64,000 bases of DNA from Octopus sinensis (Eukaryota): NCBI RefSeq assembly GCF_006345805.1, contig NC_043000.1, positions 21,452,001-21,516,000 of the forward strand, written 5' to 3'. Of the stretch, positions 43,201 through 46,200 are shown piece after piece (within the stretch, counting starts at the first letter, position 1; the number at the start of each line of letters is the position of its first letter). Below the pieces are notes generated by a model, which was not told the DNA's origin, searched no databases, and saw nothing but the letters and a program-made list of their open reading frames with translations. Both the position numbers and the translations under genes were made by a program.

Positions 43201-46200
43201 AAAGAAGCCAGTCATGTATATATATATATATATTATATATATATATATATATATAAACTACGGTTTATATAGTTACCTTGAAGTAGAATGTTAATTGTAA
43301 TGTTCAACATTCTTTATATGGGTAACAAACCAGTACTTTCATAAGATTTTGCTATTTCTTAATGACATTTGTAACCTTTATTCATTTATATATATATGTG
43401 TGTGTGTGTGTGTGTGTATGTATGTATGTATGTATGTATGTATGTATGTATGTATGTATGTATGTATGTATGTATGTATGTTTATACATGTGTGTCTTTT
43501 GTCTGTTTTTGACCCACCATCGCTTGACAACCAATGTTAGTGTTTTTATGTCCCTGAAACTTAGCGGTTTTGCAAAAGAGACTGATAGAATAAGTATTAG
43601 GCTTACAAAGAATAAGTCCTGAGGTTGATTTCTTTGACTAAAGGCGGTGCTCCAGCATGGCCACAGGAGAACATCTCCTCCAGCTGGCTTTAGGCACACT
43701 CTCTGTGCCCTTTCGGTATTTGCAAAGGGAGGTCATCCTTCCCTCGTCAACCTAAGTGATACACACGGACTGCAGTTTCTGGGTCTTGACCCGTCATCAG
43801 CGTACGACAATCACCGGTTTTCGATGAAAGGAGTTCCCAATGCAAATATTAATATCCTTTTTCCAGTAACTATTCGTCACCGATCTCGAAAGAGTGTATA
43901 CAAGCAATAATAAATCTCTGAATGAGGTATAAACAGTAACTGCACGACAATGTGAGGTATATTTGCCATCTCAAAAATGGCTAACCACCAAGAGTGGGTG
44001 TTACTGTAGCTTGTAGCCCCAGGAAAACATCTCCTGGGGCTACAAGCTACAGTAACACCCACCCTTGGTGGTTAGCCATTATTGAGATGGCAAATATACC
44101 TCACATTATCATGCAGTTAATGTTTATACCTCGTTCAGAGATTTATTATTTCCTAAATATATTGTCAGGAAAAGAGGCACTCTCTTATGTAACACATTAT
44201 ATCTATTCCATCTCTTTTTGCTTTAGAATGTTGCTGTTTTTGTTGCTGAAGATGGCATCAATGTTATTGTTACTGTTTATACTGTTTTTCCATTTAAAAC
44301 TTTATTTGCATGTGTGTGTGTGTGCGCACGCGCGTGTGTGATTTTCATTATACAGCTATAAATATTTAAGCTTGAAGCTCAGTCTGTATAATTTAGTTTT
44401 TTTTATTTGCCAAGACTTTTTAACTCTTGCTAGTTTTAATGGAAAATAATGTGGAGTTTATGTTGTTGAAGTTTGATTATTTTATCATTACTATTATCAT
44501 TATTATTAAGGATAAGGTGGCAATCTGCCAATAGTAGTAGTGGTGGTGGTGGTGGTGGTGGTGGTGGTGGTGGTGGTGGTGGTGGTAGTAGTAGTAGTAG
44601 TAGTAGTAGTAGTAGTAGTAGTAGTAGTAGTAGTAGTTGTTGTTGTTGTTGTTGTTGTTGGAGAAGGTGGAAGAAGTTGTTTCGATACTAAAATTTTCTG
44701 AAATCTTTAGCTTTTATGCATTTATTTATTTTGCTTTTGCAGCTCTATGTTAATGGTGAACCAACAGTTGAGTTGGATAGTGACACAACTTCTTACAACT
44801 ACTCCTGTTTAGCAGAAAGGTGAGTAAATGGCATACACAATATTATTTAATAGCCTTACACTCGTCTATAATACACCAACCATCTTGGCATTTTCCTTCT
44901 CGTCTTTTTGTCGTGTCTTGTCATAGACCAGTGTCCTGGTTTTTAAATACATCTAATGATAAGCACTTAGCCTAAAAGATTGCTTGGAGATCCATGGAAA
45001 TGTATAAATCTGCTAAATTTTTGTATCATTAAAGCATGCAACTATTAGTAACTCTTTTGTAAATTGTGTATACTAAATGATGTATATATATATATATATA
45101 TATATAGTGGCTGTATGGTAAGTAGCTTGCTTACCAGCCGCATGGTTCCAGGTTCAGTTCCACTGCATGGCACCTTGAGCTAGTGTCTTCTACTATAGCC
45201 TTGGGCCAACCAAAGCCTTGTGAGTGGATTTGGTAGACGGAAACTGAAAGAAACCCGTCGTATATATATATATATGTATATATATATATATAGATATATA
45301 TATATATATAATATATATATATATATATATATATATATATATATATATATATATATATACACACACATATATATATATGTATGTATGTATATATGTGTGT
45401 GTATATGTTTGTGTGTCTGTGTTTGTCCCCCCCCCCAACATCACTTGACAACCAATGCTGGTGTGTTTACGTCCCCCATAACTTAGTGGTTCGGCAAAAG
45501 GGCCCGATAGATTAAGTACTAGGCTTACAAAGAATAAGTCCTGGGGTCGATTTACTGGACTAAAGGCGATGCTCCAACATGGCCAGTTACATGACTGAAA
45601 CAAGTAAAAGAGTAAAGAGTAAAAAGTGTGTATATATATATATATATTGTTGTTATCGTCATTTAACGTCCACTTTCCATACTGGCATGGGTTGGACGGT
45701 TTTATTGATGACTAGCAAGCCAGAAGGCTGTACCAGGCTCCAATCTGATCTGGCATGGTTTCTACAGCTGGATGCCCTTCCTAACACCAACCACTCTGAG
45801 AGTGTAGTGGATGCTTTTTACATGCCACCAGCACGGGCGCCAGCCAGACGGACCCAGTATTGATCACATTTGGATAATGCTTTTTACATACCACCATATG
45901 TATGTATATAAATAAATATATATAAATCCAAACTTAGGAATTGGAGCAGGTAAAAATCCAGGCTACATATGTTTCCTATCAGAACCTTGGAAGTAATAAT
46001 TAGTAAAACGTGGAAAAAAACATCTCTACTTATTTATTAGCTATAAAATACAATTTTCATTGCATCTTCTTCAGGAGGCTTTTAAATGACTGCAATGAAA
46101 TTACTCTAAAATATAACTTGAACATGTTTTTTTCTGTGACTTCATCTTCTACCTCCACAAATGCCTCAAAAATGCAAAAACATCATAAATATTGCAATTT

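What the first reader, a model, noticed from the sequence alone, without database searches (positions are those of the whole stretch)
43664..44150. Hammerhead element with a terminal direct repeat and a 245-bp near-perfect palindrome
Seen: a roughly 370-bp unit bounded by CAGGA(G/A)AACATCTCCT (itself a small hairpin) contains an intact-core GUC hammerhead on the minus strand. It is followed by an inverted copy of its last 120 bp (palindrome 43906-44150). It truncates a SINE-A tail. Inference: partial tandem plus inverted copy is the structure expected from PLE-type reverse transcription, or from copying a circular RNA slightly more than once.
Basis: partly seen in the sequence, partly recalled or inferred. 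Interest (0 to 1): 0.7.

Follow-up and report, generated by a model that had tools for sequence, protein, structure and literature searches.

The report
Damaged two-armed hammerhead retrozyme insertion
This is one damaged copy of a 354-base, protein-free repeat with hundreds of relatives in this animal genome; it carries a predicted self-cutting RNA motif, its mirror-image shape was likely made when a Penelope-type jumping-gene enzyme copied the RNA from two fixed start points at once, and it is a new member of the known animal 'retrozymes'.

Summary
There is a type I hammerhead at 43756-43814 (minus strand, GUC site 43768|43767), a 20-bp redundancy 356 bp apart, 119-bp inverted arms (6 mismatches), and a SINE missing its tail.

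The element is a dispersed ~354-bp non-coding family: 165 exact core matches, 901 with sister families. Its 3' ends fall at two sites ~45 nt apart. Of 35 two-armed insertions with both ends at these sites, 34 pair one short with one long end. Target duplications of 9-15 bp occur in 16 of 54 loci. This is the Penelope footprint.

Three corrections:
- The 'terminal direct repeat' is not a family end. The left arm likely lost ~65 bp plus the SINE tail through a 7-bp microhomology.
- This copy has one ribozyme, so it cannot excise a circle alone.
- C·A at stem II is the family norm (31 of 36). That does not refute activity: stems covary, and an axolotl retrozyme with U·U there cleaves.

Cleavage, circles and the partner enzyme are not shown. 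The scan reported this kind of element before, on other DNA of this genome. Verdict: new member of the non-LTR retrozymes.

The parts
43023..44742 (+). Host intron (GT..AG, phase 0) of a gene with fibronectin-III-like repeats; the element lies in it, ribozyme antisense to the host
   Evidence: Flanking exons 42828-43022 and 44743-44820 translate open; Pfam fn3 E=0.1, below cut-off; PDB titin E=1.8e-5; splice sites read
43053..43666 (+). Abundant SINE lacking its last ~26-35 bp
43660..43666 (.). Left junction: 7-bp microhomology (6/7) shared by the SINE 3' part and the element; likely deletion joint
   Evidence: deletion is inferred
43660..44035 (-). Arm 1: 1.06 monomers (phases 89-354 then 1-108, counted from the cleavage site); 3' end atypical, expected at phase ~173
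43756..43814 (-). Type I hammerhead: two-part stem I, CUGAUGA core, 4-bp stem II over a C·A mismatch, GAAA, 2-bp helix III with palindromic UGCA loop; predicted cut 43768|43767
   Evidence: activity untested
43769..43776 (.). 8-nt palindrome of helix III, predicted to pair with a second hammerhead (dimer form)
   Evidence: (self-duplex -11.1 kcal/mol)
44016..44035 (-). 20-bp redundancy with 43660-43679 (phases 89-108 present twice); contains a small natural hairpin
44030..44035 (.). Inversion joint; the arms overlap by ~6 bp inside the hairpin
44030..44150 (+). Arm 2: phases 98-217, ending at the family's long fixed 3' site
44107..44150 (+). ~45-nt Penelope-type 'tail' between the two fixed 3' ends (phases ~174-217)
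   Evidence: concept from PMC8557442 and PMC11167929
43906..44150 (.). 245-bp palindrome formed by the overlap in phase of the two arms

Best explanation
This is a damaged copy of a dispersed ~354-bp non-coding repeat with a predicted type I hammerhead ribozyme (a non-LTR retrozyme), likely inserted by a borrowed Penelope-type reverse transcriptase/endonuclease that primed both cut DNA strands from two fixed sites on the RNA.

Shown: the family, the conserved ribozyme fold, two fixed 3' ends, the short-plus-long pairing of arms, target duplications, read-through of the cleavage site, and the lack of an ORF.

Inferred steps:
(1) Tandem loci are transcribed. Paired hammerheads (palindromic helix III) cut out monomers, which are probably circularised.
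(2) A PLE protein binds near phases 173-220, nicks AT-rich DNA on both strands ~9-15 bp apart, and starts one cDNA at phase ~173 and the other at ~220.
(3) The cDNAs run back through the uncut ribozyme site and are joined 3' end to 3' end by a few bases of microhomology. Here both stopped in the same small hairpin, which gives a near-perfect palindrome.
(4) Later, a microhomology deletion removed ~65 bp of the left arm, the left target duplication and the SINE tail. That left the 20-bp 'terminal repeat'.
For: Family: 139 matches from 40 scored of 4,436 candidates, full-length ones 89-94% identical; 165 exact cores; 901 relaxed cores, control 0.
Fold: 88.7% of 520 cells paired; 10 of 20 pairs change on both sides (2/500 shuffles); covariation score 0.292 (0/500). 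Helix III loop occurs as UCGA, UGCA, CCGG or wobble-palindromic UCGG in 21 of 29 copies.
Ends: 36 of 37 one-armed insertions end at phase 163-178 (17) or 208-236 (19). Of 46 two-armed insertions, 34 are short+long, 1 short+short, 0 long+long, and 11 have one or both ends atypical. Without the set chosen for a long arm the counts are 21, 1, 0.
TSD: >=9 bp in 16 of 54 loci versus 7 of 2,862 mismatched flank pairs.
Joints: mostly asymmetric with 0-6-bp overlap; 8 of 45 are near-symmetric.
Same source: opposite arms share 25 rare variants in 4,746 bp compared, versus 498 in 865,513 bp between loci; the window's arms share two.
Read-through: 12 of 15 arms pass the cleavage site in the set not selected for the ribozyme. 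One 1,902-nt arm has monomers 1-9 nt apart and 17-20 nt from the majority sequence.
Machinery: intact RT+GIY-YIG ORFs of 775-883 aa are in the genome.
Literature: tail and two RT start sites (PMC11167929); tail often at one end only (PMC8557442).
Against: No cleavage, transcript or circle was observed. Rfam misses the motif, and the active fold is not the minimum-energy fold. In the window copy the antisense circle scores a better z (-4.58) than the sense circle (-3.46). Covariation counts are inflated by relatedness, and the core, helix III stem and loop ends were partly imposed by the search pattern. No autonomous partner with a homologous end was found among the PLE families sampled. TSDs were not found in 38 of 54 loci; many lie in microsatellites or are 5'-degraded. 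One short+short exception exists (L141). Only 10 of 44 opposite-arm comparisons (6 loci) share a rare variant, and arms in L017, L028, L052 and L054 differ at 7-10 common sites, so two templates are possible there. Three of 15 arms stop at the cleavage site, hinting that some templates were linear. The left-end deletion is inferred; no empty allele was seen.
Confidence: 0.8

Rival explanations
1. The unit is only the pseudo-LTR of an autonomous Penelope element, seen as 5'-truncated fragments.
For: It has the same ends, tail, inversions and TSDs as PLEs, and pLTRs carry hammerheads (PMC4209133). Two of 20 PLE regions have a 72-80% sister unit upstream.
Against: Wherever arms are long enough, the unit continues into another copy of itself rather than into an ORF. 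The 28 one-armed 5' flanks share no common junction sequence. The two neighbours are separate insertions in microsatellites. The sampled PLE families have unrelated hammerheads and ends.
Confidence: 0.08
2. Retrozyme as above, but this palindrome arose by fold-back: one cDNA snapped back at the small hairpin and copied itself, or the arms were later homogenised by gene conversion.
For: The joint sits in a natural hairpin. The arms share two rare variants. Near-symmetric joints are 8 of 45 against 3.9 expected (P~0.04).
Against: The right arm stops at phase 217, inside the family's fixed start cluster, which a self-copy has no reason to hit. 37 of 45 joints are asymmetric. Symmetric cases such as L030, L041 and L158 still pair a short with a long end.
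Confidence: 0.07
3. The left end is original: the left cDNA was primed or joined at phase ~108-114 on the SINE through microhomology at insertion, deleting target DNA.
For: A 6/7-bp match lies at the junction, and no left TSD copy exists in the window. Other atypical ends lie at phases 96 and 100 (L046, L039).
Against: 36 of 37 one-armed ends and most two-armed ends use the two fixed sites. The ends at 96 and 100 abut unrelated sequence and look like later breaks.
Confidence: 0.15
4. A satellite or dead repeat in which the hammerhead is vestigial because stem II lacks its G-C base pair.
For: The 10.1-11.1 pair is unpaired in 21 of 26 distinct copies. There is no Rfam hit. Eight of nine Xenopus retrozyme dimers did not cleave (bioRxiv 10.64898/2026.07.22.740005).
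Against: Both-sided changes occur in stems I and II and in the helix III palindrome across 70-97% identical families. Insertions are dispersed and carry TSDs. HHR_Amex2 cleaves with a U·U at that position (PMC7229834).
Confidence: 0.05

Closest known systems
Metazoan non-LTR retrozymes (Cervera and de la Pena 2020, PMC7229834: mussel 350-390 bp, axolotl Rtz_353/HHR_Amex2; Li et al. 2026, bioRxiv 10.64898/2026.07.22.740005)
   Same: ~350-bp non-coding monomer, GC under 50%, one type I hammerhead per unit, 2-bp helix III with tetraloop, mismatch at the base of helix II (as in HHR_Amex2), tandem copies, TSDs longer than 4 bp, well-paired predicted circle, PLEs in the same genome.
   Different: Mostly dispersed 0.5-1.5-lap insertions, over half of those sampled two-armed, with a PLE tail. 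The parts of those papers I read do not describe this end pattern. No cephalopod family turned up in my searches. Expression and cleavage are not shown here.
Endonuclease-positive Penelope-like elements and their pLTRs (PMC4209133; PMC8557442; PAc in PMC11167929)
   Same: Partial tandem plus inverted 5'-truncated copy, optional tail often at one end only, two 3' start sites, AT/microsatellite targets, hammerhead near the 3' end.
   Different: No ORF. The tail is ~45 nt rather than 30-40. The hammerhead has canonical helix sizes rather than the minimal PLE type. There is no sequence similarity to the ends of the PLE families sampled here.

Membership tests
Non-LTR retrozyme | Type I hammerhead in each monomer | tested here: met
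   (sequence and covariation; Rfam does not score it)
Non-LTR retrozyme | Monomer of 150-450 bp in tandem copies, some with two or more hammerheads | tested here: met
   352-356-bp period; C30 array with five cores on one arm. The window copy itself has one core.
Non-LTR retrozyme | No coding capacity, no LTR | tested here: met
   Stops in the translated frames shown and no coding match to PLE ORFs within the unit; PBS/PPT were not searched separately
Non-LTR retrozyme | Target duplication longer than 4 bp when present | tested here: met
   9-15 bp in 16 of 54 loci versus 7 of 2,862 controls; absent in the window copy
Non-LTR retrozyme | Highly self-paired predicted circle | tested here: inconclusive
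   z -5.9 (majority) and -3.5 (window) for the sense strand, -3.9 and -4.6 for antisense; 40 shuffles each
Non-LTR retrozyme | Self-cleavage and expression as linear and circular RNA | not testable with these tools
   Needs in vitro cleavage, northern blot or raw RNA reads
Penelope-like element (autonomous) | ORF with RT and GIY-YIG endonuclease | tested here: not met
   None in the unit or joined to it
Penelope-like element (autonomous) | Two 3' start sites (tail), 5' truncation, inverted second copy | tested here: met
Penelope-like element (autonomous) | Unit homologous to the pLTR of an autonomous family | tested here: inconclusive
   No similarity to the families sampled; other families exist unsampled

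The most novel reading that the evidence does not exclude
The family is a genomic record of how Penelope enzymes build inverted insertions. An RT dimer holds one retrozyme circle and starts one cDNA on each cut strand, always one at each edge of the ~45-nt tail. It laps through the uncut ribozyme and joins the two cDNAs by microhomology. This would be direct evidence that animal retrozyme circles are PLE substrates, and the 354-nt RNA would be a minimal substrate for testing two-strand priming in vitro.
Probability: 0.45. Interest if true: 0.62.

Novelty: new member of a known kind. Interest (0 to 1): 0.4.

Why it matters
Which enzyme spreads animal retrozymes was left open in PMC7229834, and has since been argued from co-occurrence and pLTR similarity (bioRxiv 2026). 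This family gives mechanistic evidence from insertion ends. Its near-strict short+long rule also constrains how PLEs make inverted copies, a step the PAc study left unvalidated. The copy in this window is damaged and ordinary. Its only possible local effect is a 119-bp RNA duplex in a host intron, which could be an RNA-editing or small-RNA substrate (inference, untested).

Tried and rejected
- Rfam: nothing at the gathering threshold in the window; only hairpin-type miRNA and other chance matches at E<=10.
- Terminal direct repeat as a family end: rejected.
- Partner search: a GIY-YIG scan and 20 fetched regions gave three related RT+GIY-YIG families (775-883 aa). A fourth abundant GIY-YIG family had 7,145 candidates. 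Local alignment of phases 100-235 to 31 hammerhead-downstream stretches was not above shuffles (best z 1.3), and there were no BLAST hits to 20 loci of the fourth family. A by-eye likeness of the tail end to the 781-aa family is post hoc and not used.
- Chimeric PLE-retrozyme insertions at L093 and L096: rejected, because microsatellite or unrelated DNA lies between.
- Expression: no RNA holder listed; this is no evidence either way.
- Empty allele: contigs from X1, X2, X3, X4 and X6 join the last 23-25 element bases to the right flank. No loose end at 44150 appeared, but this is below the tool's 31-letter bridging rule. X5 and X7 were uninformative and the left junction was unresolved.
- Pile-up of 5' ends at the cleavage site: 3 of 15, weak.
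- The inverted-arm comparison for L141 failed and is not used.
- Rows dropped: duplicate loci of one place; L023 (cut by the locus edge, replaced by L141); L029 in the variant test (internal minisatellite); L133 in the alignment (same array as L132).
- Literature searches for a cephalopod retrozyme or a twin-priming account of PLE inversions found none in the held library. Supplements were not read and may list cephalopod hammerheads.

Full report
Observation. The sequence and the repeat finder confirm a 20-bp direct repeat at 43660 and 44016 (spacing 356) and inverted arms centred on 44028. Aligned directly, the arms 43906-44024 and 44032-44150 differ at 6 of 119 positions. On the minus strand, 43814-43756 reads as a type I hammerhead: two-part stem I, CUGAUGA, a 4-bp stem II over a C·A mismatch, GAAA, a 2-bp helix III with a UGCA loop, and GUC, with the predicted cut at 43768|43767. 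Rfam does not score it, and the isolated motif does not fold into the active shape at minimum energy. The SINE on the left matches its sister copies to 43666 and lacks their tail. The element sits in an intron (43023-44742) of a plus-strand gene with fibronectin-III-like exons. The genome is 2.72 Gb. That it is an octopus is my recall of the SINE plus an earlier scan note, not a call result.

Family. A DNA search gave 4,436 candidates, of which 40 were scored, with full-length copies 89-94% identical. The core pattern has 165 exact matches and a relaxed pattern 901; reversed controls gave 0. From 36 near-full units I derived a 354-nt monomer and numbered it from the cleavage site. The window copy is 95.8% identical to the majority. 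The period is 352-356 bp, and one locus on C30 has a 1,902-nt arm of 5.4 laps. Sister families at about 70-87% identity share the backbone and the same two 3' ends.

Ribozyme. C·A at the base of stem II occurs in 31 of 36 units. Among 29 loci from the relaxed search this position is C·A in 14, U·U in 9, U-A in 4 and other in 2. On 30 aligned motifs (26 distinct), 88.7% of cells pair, 10 of 20 pairs change on both sides, and the covariation score exceeds all 500 shuffles. Relatedness and my search pattern inflate this. Helix III is palindromic in three forms (UGCA, UCGA, CCGG loops), with UCGG as a wobble variant, together 21 of 29. This is the architecture described as needing a dimer (PMC4209133, parts 1-2 of 4 read). 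Axolotl HHR_Amex2, in a 353-nt retrozyme, has a 2-bp helix III and a U·U at the base of helix II; it cleaves 22% in an hour as a monomer and more as a dimer (PMC7229834, passages and parts 2-4 of 6 read). So the mismatch predicts a slow ribozyme, not a dead one. Against: 8 of 9 Xenopus dimers did not cleave (bioRxiv 10.64898/2026.07.22.740005, parts 1-3 of 5 read).

Ends. Across 83 distinct insertions from three differently selected sets plus five extra loci, 36 of 37 one-armed copies end at phase 163-178 or 208-236. Of 46 two-armed copies, 34 pair a short with a long end, 1 is short+short, none is long+long, and 11 have an atypical end, the window copy among them. Sixteen of the 46 (13 of the 34) come from a set chosen for holding a long arm; without that set the counts are 21, 1 and 0. 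TSDs of 9-15 bp occur in 16 of 54 loci tested, against 7 of 2,862 mismatched pairs. Many copies sit in TA microsatellites. PLEs show exactly this pattern: an inverted 5'-truncated copy and a 30-40-bp tail often at one end only (PMC8557442, passages read). The tail lies between two RT start sites of an enzyme that cuts and extends both strands and is predicted to be a dimer (PMC11167929, parts 1-2 of 4 read). Inversion joints are asymmetric in 37 of 45 cases, with mostly 0-6 bp of overlap. Opposite arms share rare variants about nine times more often per base than different loci do, but only six loci contribute and four look like mixed templates.

Template. In the set not selected for the ribozyme, 12 of 15 arms that reach the cleavage site continue through it and 3 stop there. 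The template was therefore usually a circle or an uncleaved multimer. The C30 monomers differ by 1-9 nt from each other and by 17-20 nt from the majority. That fits laps on one molecule, but also a tandem source or local amplification. The predicted circle is well paired (z -5.9 for the majority; the window copy scores better antisense).

This copy. The right arm (phases 98-217) ends at the long site. By the pairing rule the left arm should end near phase 173, but it ends at 108, where it shares GCC(A/C)CAG with the SINE. About 65 bp of element, the left TSD (no second copy of the right junction sequence in the window) and the SINE tail are all missing. A later microhomology deletion explains all three; priming on the SINE at insertion is the alternative. 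The 20-bp 'terminal repeat' is simply phases 89-108 present twice. The palindrome is near-perfect because both arms' 5' ends fall in one small hairpin, whose self-complementarity supplies the joint. The arms share two rare variants. With one hammerhead, antisense to the host gene, this locus cannot excise a monomer unaided.

Partner. The genome holds many GIY-YIG ORFs, some intact with RT. None of the families sampled has ends or a hammerhead like the unit, and the unit is never seen fused to an ORF. The partner is unidentified.

Verdict. A new member of the metazoan non-LTR retrozymes that works like a non-autonomous PLE; it is not an autonomous PLE. My searches of the held library found no cephalopod retrozyme and no twin-priming account of PLE inversions; supplements were not read. 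The one-ended tail itself is in print. My reading, including the two fixed ends and twin arms, was recorded before the first look-up of earlier notes. Those notes describe the same kind of element elsewhere in this genome and are not counted as support. Interest 0.4.

Noticed in passing
L156:1705, L157:1705, L176:1404: Three of 24 loci in one set have another element joined at the same site (phase ~310, just 5' of hammerhead stem I). It has a 246-291-aa ORF with a CCHC zinc knuckle (Pfam E=1.2e-4 for L157), in two variants 63% identical; likely a target-specific retroelement.
   Followed up: partly
L065-L068, L077, L080-L092 and related loci, 3' of GIY-YIG: A young 780-883-aa RT+GIY-YIG family carries a hammerhead with the U3·A8 core swap (TTGATAA...GAAA) and two 3' ends about 30 bp apart.
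   Followed up: partly
L180-L199, 3' UTR: A very abundant GIY-YIG family (7,145 candidates, 92-100% identical) has a hammerhead-like motif with an altered core after CUGAUG.
   Followed up: no
L029:1969-2568: A 50-bp minisatellite (about 12 copies) made from the 5' half of the hammerhead, between the two arms.
   Followed up: no
L141 (G000:C30:13628679-13630974): Two-armed insertion with a 5.4-lap arm and both ends short; the one exception to the pairing rule.
   Followed up: partly
set L151-L179, phases 31-49: 12 of 42 arms have their 5' end at phases 31-49, at the entry to the long predicted stem; possibly an RT stall.
   Followed up: no
window 43234-43380: An AT-rich, non-microsatellite insert inside the SINE's TA tract shows repeat-level contig depth; unidentified.
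   Followed up: no
window 41889-44821 (+): Exons of a host gene with fibronectin-III-like repeats (titin and Dscam hits); the gene was not identified.
   Followed up: partly
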